Shown here piece by piece: positions 7,300 through 15,283 of a stretch of 64,000 nt of DNA. The notes under the pieces are model-generated. The model was given only the letters and a program-made list of their open reading frames with translations. It did not search any database and was not told where the DNA came from. Source of the DNA: Planctomycetaceae bacterium (GTDB taxonomy: Bacteria; Planctomycetota; Planctomycetia; Planctomycetales; Planctomycetaceae); NCBI GenBank assembly GCA_037445755.1, contig JBBIJW010000023.1:22351-86350 (forward strand). Reading direction: 5' to 3'. A program made the position numbers and the translations under genes. Numbering within the stretch: the stretch's first letter is position 1; the number at the start of each line of letters is the position of its first letter.

Positions 7300-7570
7300 T
7301 GGCGTCCCCGGCACCGGGGCCGAATTGCCGGCGGCGGTCGGTCGGCGGGGGAGCCGCCGCCGCCGGTTGCCTCAGCGTGGCTCAAAGGGCGCGGCGAACG
7401 CCGACAACGGCGCCGGAGCCGTTACCACCGGTGCAACCGGACGCTTCGCCGGAGGGATGCCAAGATTCGGCAGAGGGAGTATTTGCGAAGACAGTTCGCA
7501 ACCCACCCTGGAACTACGGTTTTGGCGGTCCGGCTGATCTTCCTCGCTGCTCCGTGCCGGATGCCCCGTC

Positions 7571-8800
7571 ATGCAGACTGCGGACCGCTACCGACGCCAC
7601 CTTCCCGCCAACGGCTCTCCGCGGGGGACGGTGATGGTCTTCGTCGCGGTGGTGCTGTCGGTGGTGTTTGTGTTCTGTGCCCTGTCGGTCGACATCGGGC
7701 TGATCGTGCTGGCGCAATCCCAGTTGCAGACGGCGGCGGACGCCGCAGCACTGGCCGGTGCCCAGGCGATTCCCCAGGGGGCGACTGCGGCGGCAGCAGC
7801 AGCGGAGTTCGTCGCGGAGCACCACCACGCCGGTCACGGCGCCGTCGACTTCCGACCTGCGGAAGACTTCGAGCTGGGACGCTGGGACGAGGCCACCGCG
7901 GCGTTCCTGCCACTCTCCGGCTCCGCCCGCAAACAGGCGGACACCGTACGCGTGACCACTCGCTGCCTCACATCCCGCGGCACGCATCTGCGGCTGTTCT
8001 TCGCGCCGATCTTCGGCACCCGCAGCGCCGAGGTGGAAGCCAAAGCGACCGCTCGGATCAAAGCTCATGCCTGCGGGCGGCTGGTGGGACTCGACTGGAT
8101 TCAGATGAGCAGTGGTTACACGGACAGCTACGACTCGCGCCTCGGCGGCTATGCCTCGCAGACGCCCGGCTCGCAAGGGAACCTGTGCAGCGACGGCCCC
8201 ATCACGCTCCAGCACTGCACTGTCAACGGCAATGCCAATCCGGGGGAGGGGTATTCCACGACCCTCCAGAATGCGATCGTGACGGGCAATCTGTCTACGC
8301 ATCCCCCCATCAGCGCTCCGCCGGTCGATCCGACTCCGGCGGCGCTCGCCAACGACAACGACCTGATCCCCCCCGAATACTGGGATGCCCAGGGCAACTT
8401 CAAGCTGCAAAGCCCCGACACACTCCAGCTTCCGCCCGGACGGTATTACTTTCCCCGGGACTTCATCCTGCAAGGTACGTTGGAGATTACCGGCCCGACG
8501 GAGTTCTACATCATGGGCTACACCAACGTGGCCGGGCAGGGACTGGTGAATCCCTCGATGCAGCCGATCAACCTCCAGGTCTACCTGTTTGGCTCCGACT
8601 ACAAGAACTCCGGCGGCTCGGATTTCTACGGCGTCGTCTACGGACCGGAGACGCACGTCCTGATCTCCGGAAACGCCAATTTCTACGGCTCAATTCTGGG
8701 GCGGACGCTGGCGATTCAGACCAACGCCGGCGTGCACTTCGACGAGGCACTCGGCGTGCTGGACATCGCCGCGCCCAAAATCCCCCGTCTGGTGGAATGA
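7571..8800 (+). CDS. TadE/TadG-like (Flp-pilus pseudopilin-like) membrane-anchored protein
   Basis: The N-terminus GTVMVFVAVVLSVVFVFCALSVDIGLIVLAQSQLQTAADAAALAGA matches the TadE/G-like N-terminal domain pattern. The C-terminal part is beta-rich (NANFYGSILGRTLAIQTNAGVHFDEAL). Confidence 0.55.
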   Translation: MQTADRYRRHLPANGSPRGTVMVFVAVVLSVVFVFCALSVDIGLIVLAQSQLQTAADAAALAGAQAIPQGATAAAAAAEFVAEHHHAGHGAVDFRPAEDFELGRWDEATAAFLPLSGSARKQADTVRVTTRCLTSRGTHLRLFFAPIFGTRSAEVEAKATARIKAHACGRLVGLDWIQMSSGYTDSYDSRLGGYASQTPGSQGNLCSDGPITLQHCTVNGNANPGEGYSTTLQNAIVTGNLSTHPPISAPPVDPTPAALANDNDLIPPEYWDAQGNFKLQSPDTLQLPPGRYYFPRDFILQGTLEITGPTEFYIMGYTNVAGQGLVNPSMQPINLQVYLFGSDYKNSGGSDFYGVVYGPETHVLISGNANFYGSILGRTLAIQTNAGVHFDEALGVLDIAAPKIPRLVE

Positions 8801-8815
8801 GCGACCGAGCCGTCC

Positions 8816-9235
8816 ATGCATTTTTTCCTCTCCCGTTCCTTCCTGTTGATCGCGACCATGGGCGTCGCCGGGACGCTGTGGCTGGCTCAGAGCTGGTGCA
8901 ACCACTTTCGCCAGTCGCTGGCGGACCCGCCCCGGCTGCACGTCGATCCCGGAACTCAGCTCTCGGTCGAGACAGATGGCCCTGGTGTGGTGACGAGACG
9001 GTTTCGGCTGAGCAACCGCGGTGGCCGGCGACTCATCCTCTCGCGGCTGAATCCGGACTGCCAGTGCCTCGACTCGTCTCCCCCCATCGTGATCCCCCCC
9101 GGAGAGACATACATCCTCGATCTGGACATCTCCGTGTCTGAGGAGGCACCCGTCCCAACGTGGCGGTTCCTGACGAACGATCCGAACCGGCCGCGACTGA
9201 CGTTGACGGTGGATCGCCCTCGTCCTCAGACGTGA
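8816..9235 (+). CDS. DUF1573-like membrane-anchored protein
   Basis: N-terminal TM helix followed by an Ig-like segment (RRFRLSNRGGRRLILSRLNPDCQCL ... PPGETYILDLDIS) typical of DUF1573. It starts 15 nt after the TadG-like gene. Confidence 0.5.
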   Translation: MHFFLSRSFLLIATMGVAGTLWLAQSWCNHFRQSLADPPRLHVDPGTQLSVETDGPGVVTRRFRLSNRGGRRLILSRLNPDCQCLDSSPPIVIPPGETYILDLDISVSEEAPVPTWRFLTNDPNRPRLTLTVDRPRPQT

Positions 9236-10409: not shown

Positions 10410-11225
10410 TTACCGCTGCGCAATCAGTTCCGGACGCGGCAGGTCGGCGAGCGAGCGCAGTCCGAACAGTTCCAGAAACCGGGCCGTGGTCCGATAGGTC
10501 GGTTCTCCCCCCTCTTCCGTACGTTCGAGGGAGATCAACTGGCGACGCAGCAGTTGTCGCAAATGGGCGGCGGCGGAAGGGATGCCTGCCTCCTCGACCG
10601 CGGAACGGGTGAGCGGTTGTCGATAGGCCACCAAAGCCAGGACTTCCAGGGCCCCTTGGGCCAGTTTCACTTCCCGCGGACCGACGCCATAGACCCGCGC
10701 CCGGACCTTTTCAAACTCCGGGCGGAGCTGGAGGTGATAACCTCCCGCCGTCAGCAGGATTTCATAAGGACGTCGCTGACGCCGGTAGACGTCGTTCAGT
10801 TCGGCAATCCACCCCTCCACGTCCTCGGGTGAGGTCCGTTCGCCGATGAGATCGGCGAACTGTCGAGCGGTGAGCGGCCGTCCCCCCACGAACAGAAAGA
10901 CTTCGATGATCTGTCGGGGATGGATGCGCGGTTCCGTCGCCGGCGATCCGTCGCCGGTAGAGGCAGCGGGGCCGCACGCCGATGCCGGGGCGGCCTCCGG
11001 ATTGTCGAGTTCTGCGGGTGAACCTTCCCCTGCCACGGGTGGTTCGCCGGTCAGGAGGGACGAGGGGTCCGCATCCTCGGCGGCTTGCAGCGCCCGCTGA
11101 TAAGCGGCCTCCAGTTCGTCGGCGGACCAGGCCGCCTCACTGGGTTCGTCCGCGAAGGGCGCCGCGTCCGCCGGCGGGATGATCGCGCGAAACGGTTTGT
11201 CGTCTGCGGAAGACAGCGGGAGCAT
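10410..11225 (-). CDS. scpB: segregation and condensation protein B (acidic N-terminal extension)
   Basis: Two winged-helix ScpB repeats (EVFLFVGGRPLTARQFADLIG; LALVAYRQPLTRSAVEEAGIPS; YRTTARFLELFGLRSLADLP). ATG 11225 is preferred over the upstream TTG at 11303. Confidence 0.85.
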   Translation of the reverse strand: MLPLSSADDKPFRAIIPPADAAPFADEPSEAAWSADELEAAYQRALQAAEDADPSSLLTGEPPVAGEGSPAELDNPEAAPASACGPAASTGDGSPATEPRIHPRQIIEVFLFVGGRPLTARQFADLIGERTSPEDVEGWIAELNDVYRRQRRPYEILLTAGGYHLQLRPEFEKVRARVYGVGPREVKLAQGALEVLALVAYRQPLTRSAVEEAGIPSAAAHLRQLLRRQLISLERTEEGGEPTYRTTARFLELFGLRSLADLPRPELIAQR

Positions 11226-11360
11226 GGGCTCATCCCGACCAGTCTGTGAAACGTTCTCCCGGCGGGAGGGGGGACTATAGGCTGGAGGGGAGCAGAACCT
11301 CAAGAGGGTTTGGAGGGGGGCGCACGCAGTGTTGTTGGCGAGGGGGTTAAAAGCGCGCGA

Positions 11361-11382
11361 CCCTCAAGAGGGGTCTTGAGGG
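11361..11382 (-). terminator. candidate hairpin terminator downstream of the Cys-rich gene
   Basis: 9-bp stem CCCTCAAGA/TCTTGAGGG with a 4-nt loop. On the minus strand it is followed by TCGCGCGCTTTTAA, so the T-run is weak and displaced. A related CCTCAAGAGGG copy lies at about 11298. Confidence 0.3.
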
Positions 11383-11458
11383 CCGCGTGTGAATCGAACT
11401 CAGCCGGATCACTGCCGAGGAGATGCCTGACGACGGCAGTGGCACTGTTCCGTCGGAA

Positions 11459-12640
11459 TCACTTCGCGAGCGAGAACAGGTTGGACAGGTTCTTCGGAGC
11501 CGCGGAGGGGAAGTACCCCGTGGCACCTTCCGCCGGCGGAGCCACCGCGTCACCGGCCGGCGGGGTGGCCGGGGCGCAGCAGTTCGGCGCACAGCAGTTC
11601 TGCGGGCAGCAGCAGGAGTTGCCGCAGCAACGACGAGCCCGGCTCCGGCGAACCTTGCAGCAATAACCGCTGCCGTTGTCACAGCAGTTCGTGCCGCAGC
11701 AGGTCACGCCGCACGCATTCCGGGTCCGGCAGCAGCGCCGGCCGCGACGGCAGTGCGACGGGCCGCAGCAGGGATCGGTGCAGCAGTTCTGCGGGCAGCA
11801 GCAGGCGTTCTCGCCGCAGCAGCCGCAGCACGCATACCGATGACCGCGGCAGCGACGGGAGCGGCGGCAGCACGCGCCGCTATTGCCGTCACAGCAGTTG
11901 GCATCGCAGCAGGTCACGCCGCACGCCTTCCGGGTCCGGCAGCAGCGCCGGCCGCGACGGCAGTGCGACGGGCCGCAGCAGGGATCGGTGCAGCCGTTCT
12001 GCGGGCAGCAGCAGGCGTTCTCGCCGCAGCAACCACAACCGGCATACCGGCAGCAGCGCCGGGCACGACGGCCACGGACGCAGCAGCAACCGCTGTCACA
12101 GCAGTTGGCGTCGCAGCAGGTCACGCCGCAGGCGTTCCGGCCCCGGCAGCGGCGGCCGCGACCGGAGTGCGTCGGGCAGCAGCAGGGATCGACGCAGCAG
12201 TTCTGCGGGCAGCAGCAGGCGTTCTCGCCGCAGCAACCGGCGTAACGGCAGCAGCGCCGGGCGCGACGGCCGCGGACGCAGCAGCTACCGCTGTCACAGC
12301 AGTTGGCATCGCAGCAGGTGACATTGCAGCCGTGCCGACCGCGGCAGCGGCGTCCGCCGTGCGACGGGCAGCCGCAGGGATCGACGCAGCAGTTCTGCGG
12401 GCAGCAGCAGGCCTGCGGGCAGGCGCAGCAATCGGGTTTCACACAACGGCAATGCCGGGCGCGGCGGCCGGTGTGGCAACAACCCCCGACGGGGGCGCAA
12501 CACGTTGACGGGGCACAGCAGGACGAAGCGTAGTCACAACACTTCGACCCGCCGCAAGGGTAGCAACACCCGGCGTCAGCCTCGAGGCTGAGCAGGCCGA
12601 GCAGCGCCACCACGGCGGCACAGACTCGAATCGACTTCAT
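11459..12640 (-). CDS. secreted hyper-Cys/Arg-rich tandem-repeat protein, unknown function
   Basis: ATG 12640 is preceded by SD GGAAGGAGA (12650-12658). Signal peptide MKSIRVCAAVVALLGLLSLEADA. About 104 Cys by hand count in CC/CCC clusters. The preferred Cys codon TGC on this strand would be the rare Ala codon GCA on the other. Confidence 0.8.
   Translation of the reverse strand: MKSIRVCAAVVALLGLLSLEADAGCCYPCGGSKCCDYASSCCAPSTCCAPVGGCCHTGRRARHCRCVKPDCCACPQACCCPQNCCVDPCGCPSHGGRRCRGRHGCNVTCCDANCCDSGSCCVRGRRARRCCRYAGCCGENACCCPQNCCVDPCCCPTHSGRGRRCRGRNACGVTCCDANCCDSGCCCVRGRRARRCCRYAGCGCCGENACCCPQNGCTDPCCGPSHCRRGRRCCRTRKACGVTCCDANCCDGNSGACCRRSRRCRGHRYACCGCCGENACCCPQNCCTDPCCGPSHCRRGRRCCRTRNACGVTCCGTNCCDNGSGYCCKVRRSRARRCCGNSCCCPQNCCAPNCCAPATPPAGDAVAPPAEGATGYFPSAAPKNLSNLFSLAK
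11680..12490. repeat. four in-frame tandem repeats (periods 210, 207, 198 bp) inside the Cys-rich CDS
   Basis: Units begin with cacagcagtt at 11680, 11890, 12097 and 12295. Units 1 and 2 are nearly identical over about 130 bp. Confidence 0.9.
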
Positions 12641-13309
12641 TTTACAGCGTCTCCTTCCTGTGGGACTGGTGAGGCCGTCCTCACCGCTGGGTCGAGCGGT
12701 TCTGACATCGCGACGAAACTGGCCCTCTCCTTGTTGTGCCATTCCGCCGTATGCTCAGGTGACGGCAACGGACATACACATCGGTGAGCGTTGAGTTTCT
12801 CCTCCTTGAAGAACCTCATCGTCGCCGCGGGGCACATCCGTCTCCGACGTTGTCCCCCGCTGGGAGCGGCTGTGTCCTCGGCAACGTAGGACGCGACCTG
12901 GACTGAGTTCGAGACCGGGGGACTCGCTTGAACTATCGGACCGACCCCGCCAGCCCCTTGAGCCTCTCAAGTCGTTATCTGAAAAGCGGTTGCCGCGTCC
13001 GGACGTGACGCCTTTAGCGACTGTTCCGGTCAGTTAAGACCGCGAAACTGTCCGGGCTTCCATCCACTCGTTCGACACCGAATCCCTCCCAGTCTGGGGA
13101 AGCTGGCTCGAACGCGGATCACTTCAACGATTGTGGCAATTGTGGCGATCGGCACTCCTGTGCCTGAGAGGGGCACCAGGCCGCCCCTGAGGAACAGAAC
13201 GGATCTCCCGATCGTGCCTCCGCGCCAAGGTCTGGCACACCAGCACGATCCGTCCTAAGCTGACGTCGATGCCCCTTCGACCGTTCCTGACCGATGGGCC
13301 TCGCCGCTC

Positions 13310-14071
13310 GTGGTAACCCCTCTGCCGACGCCATCCTCGCCCCATACCGACGTCTTCGCCATTGCGGCGGAGTTGGGGTTGATTCCCTCCGAGCAGGTGG
13401 AACGACTGCGGGAGGAGTGTGCGGCCACCGGTCAGGCTCCGGCTCAGTTCCTGGCTGATCGCGGCCTGCTGAGCGCCGTGGAGCTGGACATTGTGGAAAC
13501 GCAGGCCTCCACCACGGACGTCATCCCCGGCTATCGCATCCTGGGTTTGATTGGCAAGGGAGGGATGGGGGTCGTCTACCGGGCGGAGCAGCGGACCCTC
13601 GGCCGCGTGGTAGCCCTCAAGACCATTCTCGTCAGCCGCATGGCGGATCGGAGCATGCTCGATCGGTTTGCACTGGAAGCCCGCACGGTGGGACAGCTCC
13701 GGCATCCGAACATCATTGCCGCCCATGACTTCGGCCGGCACGGAGGACGGCTGTACCTGGCCATGGAACTCGTCGAGGGGACTGATCTCGACCACCAGCT
13801 CAAAGCTCAGGGGCCCCTCGACGAGTGGCTGGTGTGGGGATTGGCCCGGCAAGCGGCGGCGGGACTCGCCCATGCCGCACAGCACCGCGTCGTCCATCGC
13901 GACGTCAAACCCGCCAATCTGATGTTGGTGGAGCCTCCCGAAGGCTATCCCCTCCCTCCCGGCCTGCCGATGGTCAAAATCGCCGATTTCGGTTTGGCGC
14001 TGTTGCAGGCGGAACTGGGGGAGCGGACGCGGTTGACGGCCACCGACACCACCTTGGGAAGTCCACACTAA
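13310..14071 (+). CDS. Ser/Thr protein kinase, N-terminal fragment (ends at an in-frame TAA inside the catalytic domain)
   Basis: GTG start. Kinase subdomains GKGGMGVVY, VVALK, HRDVKPANLM and KIADFGLA are present. The fragment ends ...TLGSPH then TAA at 14069-14071. Confidence 0.75.
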   Translation: MVTPLPTPSSPHTDVFAIAAELGLIPSEQVERLREECAATGQAPAQFLADRGLLSAVELDIVETQASTTDVIPGYRILGLIGKGGMGVVYRAEQRTLGRVVALKTILVSRMADRSMLDRFALEARTVGQLRHPNIIAAHDFGRHGGRLYLAMELVEGTDLDHQLKAQGPLDEWLVWGLARQAAAGLAHAAQHRVVHRDVKPANLMLVEPPEGYPLPPGLPMVKIADFGLALLQAELGERTRLTATDTTLGSPH

Positions 14072-15283
14072 ATGGCCCCGGAACAGCTTGAAAGCAGCGA
14101 CGTCGACTTCCGGGCCGACATGTATGCCCTCGGAGCAACGGTCTTTCACGCGCTGGCGGGGCGTCCTCCCTTTGCCGAACTGAAACTCTCGCAGCTCATT
14201 GCTGCAAAACTGGGAGAGGGCCGCCCCCGACCCATCAGCGAATACCGGGAGCATCTGGAACCGGCCACCTGCGCGCTGGTCTCCCGGTTGATGGCTCGGC
14301 AACCAGAGGAGCGTCCCGGTTCCTATCCGGAATTGTTGAGCGAAATCGACGCCGTCCTCCATTCACTGCGGACCACGACGCTGCCGGTGCCGGCCGGGAT
14401 TCCCCCTCTCTCTCCGAGTCCCCCTCCCGGCGGGAGCGCCACCGACCAGTTCCCCGGCGGGGTGACGGCGCCTCAACCGGCCGGGGCTGCCGGAGCACCT
14501 CCGCGGCCACACGCGCGGCGCTGGATCATGTCCGGGATCGCGGTCGGGAGTGCCGTCCTGCTCCTCATCGCCGCCATCGCCTGGCGACCTCAGCGGCGGA
14601 ATCGTCCTGAAGCCGTCGTACCGCAGCGGGTGGCAGCCGCTTCCACCCGGACCGTCCTTTCGCTGCTGAATGGGGTCGACACCCGGGGGTGGCTCATCGG
14701 GCACGGAAACTGGGTGTATCGGCCGGAGGAAGCGGCCTTGGTGGGGACGGACGGCATCATCACGCGCCCCATCCCCTTGGAAGTCGCGGAATTGGAAGGC
14801 GCCGCCCCGGCGCAACCGTATCGCTGGTATCGACTCGAATTGATCTTGTTGCCTCTGGCTGCAAGTCCCGCGGAGGGGGAACGGCCTGAGGACAGCCTGG
14901 ACAGGCAGGGGGGGGAGCGTGCCGCGCACCATCGGTCGCAGGAACTGCACTTTGGCATGGAGAGCATTGACGGGACGGAGGATGCGCCCCGGTACGTGCT
15001 GAGACGATCGGAGAGCGAGCTGTCGCTCGGCACGCGCGAATCGCACCAAGCGCCGTTTGTCCTCCATGCCGGTGCTGATGCCCGCCCCACGGACCCCGCG
15101 CAGGCAATGGCCGTCACGCTGGAACGTCTGCCGAGCGGCTGGTTTGTGGACGTGAACGGAACGGCATTCGCGGCAGTTCCGCTTCGTCCGCAGGAGCGGC
15201 CGGCGTTCAGCCTCCGCGCGGAGGGGGATGTCCGCTTTGCCGAGATGGCCCTGCATCCGCTCCGGCCCCGAGACCCGGAGTGA
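14072..15283 (+). CDS. Ser/Thr protein kinase, C-terminal fragment (rest of catalytic domain, TM helix, DUF1080-like ectodomain)
   Basis: Begins MAPEQ immediately after the TAA, in the same frame. Contains DMYALGATVFH, the TM segment IAVGSAVLLLIAAIAW, and a LLNGVDTRGW ... VDVNGTAFAAVPL jelly-roll pattern. Confidence 0.7.
   Translation: MAPEQLESSDVDFRADMYALGATVFHALAGRPPFAELKLSQLIAAKLGEGRPRPISEYREHLEPATCALVSRLMARQPEERPGSYPELLSEIDAVLHSLRTTTLPVPAGIPPLSPSPPPGGSATDQFPGGVTAPQPAGAAGAPPRPHARRWIMSGIAVGSAVLLLIAAIAWRPQRRNRPEAVVPQRVAAASTRTVLSLLNGVDTRGWLIGHGNWVYRPEEAALVGTDGIITRPIPLEVAELEGAAPAQPYRWYRLELILLPLAASPAEGERPEDSLDRQGGERAAHHRSQELHFGMESIDGTEDAPRYVLRRSESELSLGTRESHQAPFVLHAGADARPTDPAQAMAVTLERLPSGWFVDVNGTAFAAVPLRPQERPAFSLRAEGDVRFAEMALHPLRPRDPE

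What the first reader, a model, noticed from the sequence alone, without database searches (positions are those of the whole stretch)
11459..12640. Secreted hyper-cysteine/arginine repeat protein (about 28% Cys) with no recognisable bacterial family
This minus-strand ORF has a strong SD (GGAAGGAGA) 9 nt before ATG 12640 and a classical signal peptide (MKSIRVCAAVVALLGLLSLEADA). The mature chain is made almost entirely of C, R, G, P, N and D. By hand count it has about 104 Cys in about 370 residues, arranged in CC/CCC clusters (CCGENACCCPQNCCVDPCCCP, GVTCCDANCCDSGCCC, VRGRRARRCCRYAG). These form four units of 66-70 aa, followed by a Cys-free tail (ATPPAGDAVAPPAEGATGYFPSAAPKNLSNLFSLAK). The composition recalls mammalian high-sulfur keratin-associated proteins, protamines or metallothioneins rather than any bacterial family I know. 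Established background: planctomycete envelopes were classically described as proteinaceous and rich in cystine and proline, and Cys/Pro-rich (YTV) wall proteins are reported from Rhodopirellula. My inference is a disulfide-crosslinked envelope or holdfast matrix protein, or a periplasmic thiolate metal sink. The gene is divergently arranged with the interrupted Ser/Thr kinase gene.
Basis: partly seen in the sequence, partly recalled or inferred. Interest (0 to 1): 0.85.

Follow-up and report, generated by a model that had tools for sequence, protein, structure and literature searches.

The report
Secreted 28%-cysteine orphan repeat protein
An uncultured planctomycete carries a real, evolutionarily conserved gene for an exported, strongly basic protein in which more than one residue in four is cysteine. 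It has no detectable relatives in any database, it most resembles hair keratin-associated proteins by convergence, and public gene callers and assemblers systematically miss it.

Summary
ORF 11459-12640 (-) encodes 393 aa: a Sec-type signal peptide, then a 370-aa mature chain with 104 Cys (28.1%; other window genes average 1.3%), 48 Arg and net charge +36. It contains four 63-70-aa units built from CCxxx pentads, and a Cys-free tail.

It is a real gene. It has a Shine-Dalgarno sequence (SD) 9 nt before the ATG and host-like synonymous codon use. The antisense Ala-rich ORF uses the genome's rarest Ala codon. Three related metagenome contigs (ScpB 99/89/77% identical) carry its 3' part in synteny, with dN/dS of 0.14-0.38 and only in-frame indels.

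No homologue turned up in Pfam, NCBIfam, PDB, 5.8 billion protein clusters or 1.84 billion representatives. More distant relatives lack it at this locus. Public assemblies break inside the repeats, and gene callers pick the wrong frame.

Cys density is conserved (20-21 per unit) but Cys positions turn over, which argues against a fixed knot-like fold.

Function is inferred, not shown. The best guess is a disulfide-crosslinked, polyanion-binding envelope or extracellular matrix protein, a convergent analogue of keratin-associated proteins. The main rival is a thiolate metal sink.

It is an orphan with narrow distribution, unusual and worth an experiment.

The parts
12650..12658 (-). Shine-Dalgarno GGAAGGAGA, 9 nt upstream of the ATG
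   Evidence: Read directly from the sequence.
11459..12640 (-). Complete CDS of the hyper-Cys protein (393 aa plus stop)
   Evidence: ORF list and translation. Synonymous codon score is 0.435 bits/codon against 0.32-0.51 for reference genes. dN/dS is 0.14-0.38 against orthologous fragments.
12572..12640 (-). Sec-type signal peptide MKSIRVCAAVVALLGLLSLEADA (n-region MKSIR, 14-residue h-region, A-D-A cleavage motif)
   Evidence: Sequence inspection. No twin-arginine motif. The -3 residue is D, so it is not a canonical lipobox. No signal-peptide predictor was available.
12434..12571 (-). N-terminal degenerate Cys-rich segment (residues 24-69), CC-x4-5-CC spacing
12242..12433 (-). Repeat unit 1 (residues 70-133, 20 Cys)
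12038..12241 (-). Repeat unit 2 (residues 134-201, 21 Cys)
11828..12037 (-). Repeat unit 3 (residues 202-271, 21 Cys)
11639..11827 (-). Repeat unit 4 (residues 272-334, 20 Cys)
11570..11638 (-). Partial fifth unit (ARRCCGNSCCCPQNCCAPNCCAP). This is the site of pentad-sized in-frame indels between strains.
11462..11569 (-). Cys-free C-terminal tail ATPPAGDAVAPPAEGATGYFPSAAPKNLSNLFSLAK. The last 21 codons are identical at the DNA level in all four lineages.
11394..11524 (-). About 130-nt block (end of CDS, stop and first ~65 nt of the 3'UTR) that is 100% identical at the DNA level in window, L023, L024 and L025
   Evidence: It folds stably (z = -4.05). No Rfam match. Single copy in the window.
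11346..11389 (-). Terminator-like hairpin (14-bp stem GGCCCUCAAGA..UCUUGAGGGUC, CCCC loop) followed by UUUU, between the Cys-rich gene and scpB
   Evidence: Fold, conserved in relatives. It fails the strict scan, which requires at least 5 T.
11423..12508 (+). Antisense Ala-rich shadow ORF (361 aa), judged non-coding
   Evidence: 88 of 140 Ala codons are GCA, which accounts for only 9% of Ala codons in reference genes. Codon score -0.32. dN/dS 1.06-1.5.

Best explanation
This is a genuine, lineage-restricted gene of an uncultured Planctomycetaceae bacterium.

The product is exported through Sec and loses a 23-residue signal peptide. The mature ~38.8-kDa chain is a polycationic (net +36) block copolymer. 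CCxxx-pentad blocks that are neutral or acidic (CCGENACCCPQNCCVDPCCCP, VTCCDANCCDSGCCC) alternate with Arg-rich linkers (RGRRARR, RRGRR, KVRRSRARR). Only 6.5% of residues are hydrophobic, so there is no basis for a hydrophobic core.

Inferred mechanism: outside the cytoplasm the roughly 100 thiols are oxidised into a dense, largely non-stereotyped network of intra- and intermolecular disulfides. The arginine linkers bind anionic envelope or extracellular polymers. The result would be an insoluble, covalently cured matrix in the cell envelope, surface layer or holdfast. That makes it a convergent functional analogue of mammalian ultra-high-sulfur keratin-associated proteins, and it fits the PVC-group habit of disulfide-crosslinked envelope proteins.

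Shown: gene reality, export signal, composition and architecture, purifying selection, conservation of Cys density together with positional turnover, and orphan status.

Inferred: oxidation state, localisation, crosslinking and polyanion binding.
For: Gene reality:
- Shine-Dalgarno sequence (SD) and ATG.
- Host-like synonymous codon use, with 87% of Cys codons being TGC.
- GC3 of 83%.
- dN/dS of 0.14-0.38 in the Cys frame, against 0.2-0.3 for the neighbouring scpB.
- All four indels between orthologues are multiples of 3.
- A hairpin terminator follows the stop.

Export: a canonical n/h/c signal peptide.

Matrix-type rather than fixed-fold:
- 6 of 13 orthologue substitutions create or destroy a Cys.
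- In the internal repeats, 14 of 28 Cys columns vary, yet each unit keeps 20-21 Cys.
- One strain gains a CCCPQN unit (+3 Cys), so Cys parity is not conserved.
- 47 adjacent CC pairs and 13 CC-x3-CC motifs, the pentad pattern of KAPs, against 5 CxC and 1 CxxC.
- 24 hydrophobic residues in 370.
- AlphaFold gives no confident fold (pLDDT 42).

Background: Cys-rich proteins are recovered from planctomycete cell-wall preparations (PMC8567305, PMC12673574).
Against: - There is no expression, localisation or redox evidence.
- The protein is unrelated to the YTV wall proteins (no Pfam hit at all for the protein at E<=10, which includes the YTV model, and no YTV tripeptide).
- The gene is confined to a narrow clade, so it cannot be a general planctomycete envelope component.
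- Neighbouring genes are housekeeping and give no functional link.
- The same composition could serve metal binding.
- The KAP analogy rests on my memory of KAP sequences, not on a comparison run here.
- The repeat count in the window could be affected by assembly of a repetitive region.
Confidence: 0.4

Rival explanations
1. Exported thiolate metal or metalloid sink, a giant metallothionein-like protein. The Cys clusters would stay reduced, or be re-reduced, and would sequester soft metals such as Cu(I), Cd, Zn, Hg or As(III) in the periplasm or outside the cell.
For: - 28% Cys with almost no aromatic or hydrophobic residues, and a modular repeat build.
- Cys density rather than exact positions is conserved.
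- Vicinal thiols bind As(III) and Hg well (general chemistry, from my own knowledge).
- From my own knowledge, an exported Cys-lined copper store (Csp1 of methanotrophs) is a precedent for thiolates outside the cytoplasm.
Against: - The motif spectrum is not MT-like: 5 CxC and 1 CxxC against 47 CC.
- 13% Arg and net +36 would repel cations and is atypical of metallothioneins.
- Sec export of an unfolded chain into an oxidising compartment favours disulfides.
- No metal-resistance or metal-sensor gene lies nearby.
- No hit to any MT family in Pfam or NCBIfam.
Confidence: 0.2
2. Polyprotein precursor. After export, the chain would be cut at the Arg-rich linkers, which offer dibasic sites, into several ~20-30-residue disulfide-rich cationic peptides with antimicrobial, toxin or signalling activity.
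For: - Regular alternation of Cys blocks and RR/RxRR linkers; 16 dibasic sites.
- Signal peptide present.
- Secreted Cys-rich tandem-repeat architectures (SCREPs) exist in bacteria and eukaryotes (PMC6262176).
- Rapid repeat-number change between strains.
Against: - Disulfide-rich bioactive peptides keep invariant Cys frameworks; here Cys positions turn over.
- The linkers themselves contain Cys.
- No protease, transporter or immunity gene is adjacent.
- I know of no precedent for such precursors in bacteria.
Confidence: 0.08
3. Secreted protamine-like condenser of extracellular polyanions (eDNA, polyphosphate or acidic/sulfated polysaccharide). Arg clusters would do the binding and Cys crosslinks would lock the complex, as a biofilm or holdfast glue. 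This overlaps with the best explanation but puts binding first and structure second.
For: - Arg clusters of B-x-B-B-x-B-B type and net charge +36.
- An Arg plus Cys composition recalls mammalian protamine P1 (from memory).
Against: - Cys outnumbers Arg two to one.
- There is no evidence on ligands.
- Adjacency to scpB is separated by a terminator hairpin, and the protein is exported, so a nucleoid role is unlikely.
Confidence: 0.15
4. Not a functional gene. It would be a chance ORF in a GC-rich TGC/GCA-type repeat, or the real product would come from another frame such as the Ala-rich plus-strand ORF.
For: - Both strands are open across the repeat.
- Public gene callers chose other frames on related contigs.
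- No protein of this kind exists in any database.
Against: - The Cys frame has host-like codon use, whereas the Ala frame scores -0.32 with 63% GCA.
- dN/dS is 0.14-0.25 in the Cys frame and 1.06-1.5 in the Ala frame (same three orthologue pairs). The only other low-omega frame shares wobble positions and has 5 stops.
- SD, signal peptide and terminator are all present.
- The protein tail and the Cys count per unit are conserved.
Confidence: 0.03

Closest known systems
Mammalian ultra-high-sulfur keratin-associated proteins (KAP4/5/9-type; Pfam Keratin_B2 / Keratin_B2_2)
   Same: About 30% Cys. CC-x3 pentad repeats, often with Pro (CCCPQNCCVDPCCCP here). Rich in Arg, Pro, Gly and Ser, and basic. 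No hydrophobic core. Length polymorphism through 15-nt pentad indels. The KAP properties are recalled from my own knowledge; the properties of this protein come.
   Different: No sequence homology was detected: no Pfam hit at E<=10. This protein is bacterial and Sec-exported rather than cytosolic in keratinocytes. It has a higher-order 63-70-aa repeat, Arg-cluster linkers and a conserved Cys-free tail. The resemblance is convergent.
Planctomycete YTV cell-wall proteins (Rhodopirellula, Gemmata, Tuwongella)
   Same: Cys-rich secreted proteins from the same class of bacteria, recovered from cell-wall preparations (PMC8567305, PMC12673574). The presumed role is a disulfide-stabilised proteinaceous envelope.
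   Different: No YTV motif and no Pfam YTV hit. YTV proteins occur across the Planctomycetia, whereas this gene is confined to a narrow clade. From my own knowledge, the Cys fraction here is several-fold higher.
Chlamydial cysteine-rich envelope proteins OmcA/OmcB
   Same: PVC-superphylum precedent for an envelope made rigid by intermolecular disulfides between exported Cys-rich proteins (general knowledge; see also PMC2811131).
   Different: No homology. From memory, OmcA has about 15% Cys and OmcB about 5%. They lack CCxxx pentads and Arg clusters. OmcA is a lipoprotein, whereas this protein has no canonical lipobox.
Metallothioneins (bacterial SmtA/BmtA/PmtA; ciliate Cd-MTs with CCC clusters and modular repeats)
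   Same: About 30% Cys, few aromatics, and a modular repeat build. CC and CCC clusters occur in ciliate MTs (from memory).
   Different: Metallothioneins are small, mostly cytosolic, Lys-rich rather than Arg-rich, and dominated by CxC and CxxC motifs. This protein has 5 CxC and 1 CxxC against 47 CC, carries a signal peptide, is 370 aa long and has net charge +36. No MT family hit.
SCREPs (secreted cysteine-rich repeat proteins), an architectural class
   Same: A signal peptide followed by tandem Cys-rich repeats. The class includes many uncharacterised bacterial members (PMC6262176).
   Different: SCREP domains are independently folded units with fixed Cys frameworks. Here Cys positions are not fixed and Cys density is far higher. 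SCREP is a descriptive class, not a homologous family.

Membership tests
Keratin-associated proteins (Pfam Keratin_B2, Keratin_B2_2 and related) | Significant match to the family HMM | tested here: not met
   hmmscan against Pfam-A at E<=10 returned 0 families. HMMER's composition filters may suppress weak matches.
Keratin-associated proteins (Pfam Keratin_B2, Keratin_B2_2 and related) | CC-x3 pentapeptide repeats with about 30% or more Cys | tested here: met
   13 CC-x3-CC motifs and 47 CC pairs. Cys autocorrelation peaks at lags 1 and 5-6. 31% Cys in the core. This is resemblance only, not homology.
Planctomycete YTV wall proteins (Pfam YTV) | Multiple YTV motifs / match to the YTV HMM | tested here: not met
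   No Pfam hit. The tripeptide YTV is absent from the sequence.
Planctomycete YTV wall proteins (Pfam YTV) | Presence in cell-wall (SDS-insoluble) fraction | not testable with these tools
   Needs proteomics of envelope fractions.
Metallothioneins | Match to an MT family model (Pfam/NCBIfam) | tested here: not met
   0 hits in Pfam and NCBIfam at E<=10.
Metallothioneins | CxC/CxxC-dominated Cys pattern, small size, cytosolic | tested here: not met
   5 CxC, 1 CxxC, 47 CC. 370-aa mature chain. Signal peptide present.
Metallothioneins | Metal-thiolate clusters in the native protein | not testable with these tools
   Needs ICP-MS and thiol titration of purified protein.
SCREP architecture (secreted Cys-rich repeat proteins) | Signal peptide plus tandem Cys-rich repeats | tested here: met
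   Signal peptide. 198-210-nt tandem repeat in 2.8-3.7 copies. Four aligned units.
SCREP architecture (secreted Cys-rich repeat proteins) | Each repeat is a domain with a conserved Cys framework | tested here: not met
   14 of 28 Cys columns vary among the four units, and 6 of 36 vary among orthologues.
Lipoprotein (as for chlamydial OmcA) | Lipobox [LVI][ASTVI][GAS]C at the end of the signal peptide | tested here: not met
   The sequence is D-A-G-C. D at -3 does not fit, whereas the A-D-A|G signal peptidase I site does. This was judged by inspection only.

The most novel reading that the evidence does not exclude
A previously unseen class of bacterial extracellular material: a de novo evolved, repeat-expanded bacterial 'keratin-associated protein'. 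Its ~100 cysteines and Arg clusters would cure into a covalently crosslinked polyelectrolyte matrix (envelope armour or holdfast glue). Families of this kind would be systematically absent from protein databases, because short-read assemblies break in them and gene callers choose the wrong frame. If so, hyper-Cys proteins may be much more widespread in bacteria than the catalogues suggest.
Probability: 0.25. Interest if true: 0.85.

Novelty: new variant of a known kind. Interest (0 to 1): 0.68.

Why it matters
To my knowledge no bacterial protein of this size approaches 28% cysteine. The known bacterial Cys-rich structural proteins (chlamydial OmcA/B, spore-coat and exosporium proteins, YTV proteins) and the bacterial metallothioneins are far lower or far smaller.

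If it is a crosslinked matrix protein, it gives a concrete and testable molecular candidate for the old observation that planctomycete envelopes are proteinaceous and cystine-rich. It would also be a striking case of convergence with hair matrix proteins.

There is a methodological point too. All three related short-read contigs whose upstream end reaches the gene stop inside the repeats, and the two with a gene called there had it in a wrong frame. The family therefore has zero representation among ~15 billion predicted proteins. That is a blind spot which may hide other extreme-composition genes.

Tried and rejected
Homologue searches that found nothing:
- Pfam and NCBIfam scans of the protein at E<=10: nothing.
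- Word-indexed search of 5.8 billion clusters with the full protein and with the Cys-free tail alone: nothing.
- Exhaustive phmmer against 1.84 billion representatives: nothing.
- PDB sequence search at E<=10: nothing.
- Exact look-ups of the protein, the 427-aa long form, the shadow ORFs and the mis-called fragments: none is in the collection. The source genome itself is therefore not in the protein collection; the best ScpB hit is 99% identical, not 100%.

DNA-level searches:
- The search for related loci in GTDB genomes gave 28 pattern hits, none confirmed by tblastn. Low-complexity masking may have contributed.
- The CCCPQNCC DNA pattern found 9 stretches in GTDB genomes and 13 in JGI metagenomes. 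All are single, out-of-frame chance matches.
- These DNA collections evidently do not hold the related contigs L023-L025, so absence there is weak evidence.

Other checks:
- AlphaFold2 on the single sequence gave pLDDT 42 and pTM 0.20. I did not run a fold search because it would be meaningless at that confidence.
- Rfam over 11200-13400 returned only sub-threshold noise.
- The strict terminator scan found none, although a strong hairpin followed by UUUU is present.
- A search for operator-like palindromes in the 670-nt upstream spacer gave nothing interpretable.
- Literature searches for the sample accessions and for comparable bacterial proteins found nothing specific.

Readings considered and rejected:
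- Ala-rich plus-strand gene (codon use and dN/dS).
- Upstream ATG 12742 as the start: no properly spaced SD, and it would bury the signal peptide.
- Lipoprotein (D at -3).
- Tat substrate (no RR motif in the n-region).
- Nucleoid protamine linked to scpB (the protein is exported, and a terminator lies between the genes).
Full report
**1. What is there**

The minus-strand ORF runs from ATG 12640 to stop 11459-11461. GGAAGGAGA lies at 12658-12650, exactly 9 nt before the ATG.

The product is 393 aa. It starts with MKSIRVCAAVVALLGLLSLEADA, which has a basic n-region, a 14-residue hydrophobic core and an A-x-A cleavage motif. This is a textbook Sec signal peptide. It has no twin-arginine motif, and D at -3 excludes a canonical lipobox.

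The mature chain has the following properties.

| Property | Value |
|---|---|
| Length | 370 aa |
| Cys | 104 (28.1%) |
| Arg | 48 |
| Gly | 43 |
| Pro | 26 |
| Hydrophobic residues (I, L, M, F, W, V, Y) | 24 |
| Mass | 38.8 kDa |
| Net charge | +36 |

Seventeen other genes of the window average 1.3% Cys, with a maximum of 2.7%.

**2. Architecture**

Tandem Repeats Finder reports a 198-210-nt period in 2.8-3.7 copies. At the protein level there are several parts:
- a degenerate N-terminal Cys segment;
- four units of 63-70 aa;
- a partial fifth unit;
- a 36-residue Cys-free tail.

Each unit alternates four elements:
- a Cys-pentad block (CCGENACCCPQNCCVDPCCCP);
- an Arg linker (SHxGRGRRCRGRN);
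- a second Cys block (ACGVTCCDANCCDSGCCC);
- a second Arg cluster (VRGRRARRCCRYAG).

The Cys spacing is dominated by CC (47 cases) and CC-x3-CC (13). Only 5 CxC and 1 CxxC occur. Cys autocorrelation peaks at lags 1 and 5-6.

**3. Is it a gene?**

ORF length is not evidence here, because the TGC-rich repeat leaves the antisense GCA (Ala) frame open for 361 codons as well. Four independent lines point to the Cys frame.

(a) Synonymous codon use. I scored it against eight confident genes of the window.
- The Cys frame scores 0.435 bits/codon, inside the reference range of 0.32-0.51.
- The Ala frame scores -0.32. 88 of its 140 Ala codons are GCA, which is only 9% of Ala codons in reference genes.

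(b) GC3 is 83% in the Cys frame and 54% in the Ala frame.

(c) Orthologues. The downstream gene is scpB. Its closest database relatives, at 99, 89 and 77% identity, sit on contigs L023, L024 and L025. Translated in the right frame, each contig carries the 3' end of the same Cys-rich gene directly upstream of scpB.

dN/dS by frame:

| Frame | dN/dS | Note |
|---|---|---|
| Cys frame | 0.14-0.38 | comparable to scpB (0.2-0.3) |
| Ala-rich antisense frame | 1.06-1.5 | no purifying selection |
| Other low-omega frame | 0.20-0.27 | shares wobble positions; contains 5 stops |

(d) All four indels between the orthologues are multiples of three (+18, +15, +3, -6). They add or remove pentad-type units such as CCCPQN and PNCCC.

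A strong hairpin followed by UUUU separates the gene from scpB.

I put the residual probability that this is not a functional gene at about 3%.

**4. Distribution and why databases are blind to it**

No relative was found anywhere:
- Pfam or NCBIfam at E<=10;
- PDB sequences;
- 5.8 billion protein clusters, queried with the whole protein and with the non-repetitive tail;
- an exhaustive phmmer pass over 1.84 billion representatives.

Scans of GTDB genomes and JGI metagenomes for the CCCPQNCC DNA pattern gave only single, out-of-frame chance matches.

The three orthologous fragments explain the silence.
- L023, L024 and L025 each end inside the repeats, so short-read assembly breaks there.
- On L023 and L024 the called "genes" (23 aa and 57 aa) are in the Leu/Arg-rich frame, not the Cys frame.

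In more distant relatives (ScpB 69% identical or less; 13 loci, 110 kb) the region around scpB has no hyper-Cys ORF and different neighbours.

The ScpB hits that carry a source name point to Planctomycetaceae. The nearest named genera, Planctomicrobium and Maioricimonas, are only 45-49% identical.

The gene is therefore a lineage-restricted orphan of an undescribed Planctomycetaceae clade. One caveat applies: DNA-level homologues elsewhere in these genomes, or in data not held here, could not be excluded.

**5. What the pattern of evolution says**

- Of 13 amino-acid differences among the orthologues, 6 create or remove a Cys (C<->G, C<->S, C<->H).
- Among the four internal units, 14 of 28 Cys columns vary, yet the units carry 20, 21, 21 and 20 Cys.
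- One strain has an extra CCCPQN (+3 Cys), so even the parity of the Cys count is not kept.

Selection thus maintains Cys density and the block pattern, not a defined disulfide topology. That is unlike knottins, defensins, granulins or SCREP domains, whose Cys frameworks are invariant. It fits a protein that works through bulk chemistry, either crosslinking or thiolate clusters.

By contrast, the Cys-free tail GYFPSAAPKNLSNLFSLAK is invariant. It may form a docking or anchoring element; KNLSNLFSLAK can be drawn as an amphipathic helix. That point is inference.

AlphaFold on the single sequence gives no confident fold (pLDDT 42).

**6. Most likely mechanism**

Steps supported by the sequence: the protein carries a Sec signal peptide and lacks the residues to build a hydrophobic core.

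Inferred steps:
- In the periplasm or outside the cell the thiols oxidise. Adjacent cysteines rarely bond to each other (general protein chemistry), so CC pairs reach out to different partners.
- This gives a dense intra- and intermolecular network.
- The Arg clusters (B-x-B-B-x-B-B) bind anionic polymers.
- The outcome is an insoluble, covalently cured matrix in the envelope, surface or holdfast.

This mirrors how ultra-high-sulfur keratin-associated proteins work. From memory, those proteins share the CCxPx pentads, the ~30% Cys, the Arg/Pro/Ser/Gly bias and even the 15-nt indel polymorphism. It also matches PVC-group precedents, namely YTV proteins in planctomycete wall preparations (PMC8567305, PMC12673574) and chlamydial OmcA/B.

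My confidence is about 0.4.

Rivals:
- a giant exported metallothionein-like sink (0.2), weakened by the non-MT motif spectrum, the +36 charge and Sec export;
- a protamine-like extracellular polyanion condenser (0.15), which overlaps with the best model;
- a polyprotein precursor of cationic Cys-rich peptides (0.08), weakened by the Cys turnover;
- not a gene (0.03).

The neighbourhood is housekeeping and gives no functional clue: ACS, an HpnH-like radical SAM gene, FtsK, TilS, ScpB, a Ser/Thr kinase, MutS, LeuRS and PPK.

**7. Comparison and novelty**

Membership in the KAP, YTV and MT families was tested by HMM and failed. The KAP-like pentad pattern and the SCREP-like architecture (signal peptide plus Cys-rich tandem repeats, PMC6262176) are met only as resemblances.

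I rate it a new variant of a known kind, namely secreted Cys-rich crosslinking or repeat proteins. Its composition is, to my knowledge, unprecedented for a bacterial protein of this size.

The most novel reading not excluded is a de novo, repeat-expanded bacterial "KAP" that forms a new kind of extracellular material and represents a hidden class missed by assemblers and gene callers. I give that a probability of about 0.25.

**8. Caveats**

- Only the last 93-130 residues of the orthologues are available.
- The N-terminal two-thirds and the repeat number rest on the window alone, and repeats are assembly-prone.
- In L024 the sequence before the last unit matches the window's unit-2/3 junction rather than its unit-3/4 junction. 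This hints at repeat-number differences.
- HMMER's composition corrections reduce sensitivity for such sequences.
- The signal peptide was judged by inspection.
- All functional statements are inference.

Noticed in passing
window 11394-11524 (minus strand); L023, L024, L025 equivalents: A block of about 130 nt is 100% identical at the DNA level in all four lineages. It covers the last 21 codons of the Cys-rich CDS, the stop and the first ~65 nt of the 3'UTR, and it shows not one synonymous change. Elsewhere scpB dS reaches 0.48 and the intergenic spacer as a whole (this block included) differs by 11-21% between the window or L023 and L024/L025. The block folds stably (z = -4.05), has no Rfam match and is single-copy in the window. 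This suggests a nucleotide-level constraint such as a 3'UTR RNA element, an sRNA or an antisense feature. With no variation, covariation cannot be tested.
   Followed up: partly
window 14069-14071 (plus strand), within kinase 13310-15283: The Ser/Thr kinase is split by a single in-frame TAA that sits exactly where the Tyr of the conserved G-[ST]-P-x-Y-M-A-P-E activation-segment motif should be (GSPH*MAPEQ). This looks like a TAY-to-TAA nonsense change: a recent pseudogene, a strain polymorphism or a sequencing error.
   Followed up: partly
L023 1-72; L024 1-174 and 190-303; L025 start: Three public short-read contigs from related organisms (L023, L024, L025) terminate inside the repeat gene. 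On L023 and L024 the automatic gene calls are in the Leu/Arg-rich frame, not the Cys frame. As a result the family has no entry among ~15 billion predicted proteins.
   Followed up: yes
window 11423-12508 (+): A 361-aa Ala-rich antisense shadow ORF (63% of its Ala codons are GCA) is kept open by the TGC repeats. It could easily be mis-annotated as a gene. Codon use and dN/dS (1.06-1.5) argue against it.
   Followed up: yes
L024 2-60 versus window 11828-12080: In the 89%-ScpB relative, the sequence preceding the last repeat unit (RRCCRYAGCGCCGEN) matches the window's unit-2/3 junction, not its unit-3/4 junction. This suggests a different number of units or gene conversion between units. Pentad-sized indels (+CCCPQN in L023; +C and +PNCCC in L025) show ongoing length variation.
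   Followed up: partly
window 7571-8800 (+): The ORF with no Pfam hit in its long form (7483-9141) matches a TadE/G-like N-terminus and DUF7305 when started at 7571. Relatives have it called as 409 aa plus a separate 139-aa gene (L023).
   Followed up: no
window 13128-13151: There is a near-palindrome containing a direct repeat (CGATTGTGGCAATTGTGGCGATCG) in the 670-nt divergent spacer, about 160 nt upstream of the kinase start. It may be an operator. Nothing comparable lies close to the Cys-rich gene's start.
   Followed up: no
L028 632-1147, L035 9400-9888, L036 423-875: In several more distant Planctomycetaceae (ScpB 53-56% identical), the gene directly upstream of scpB is a DCC1-like thiol-disulfide oxidoreductase rather than the Cys-rich gene. 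This is probably coincidental.
   Followed up: no
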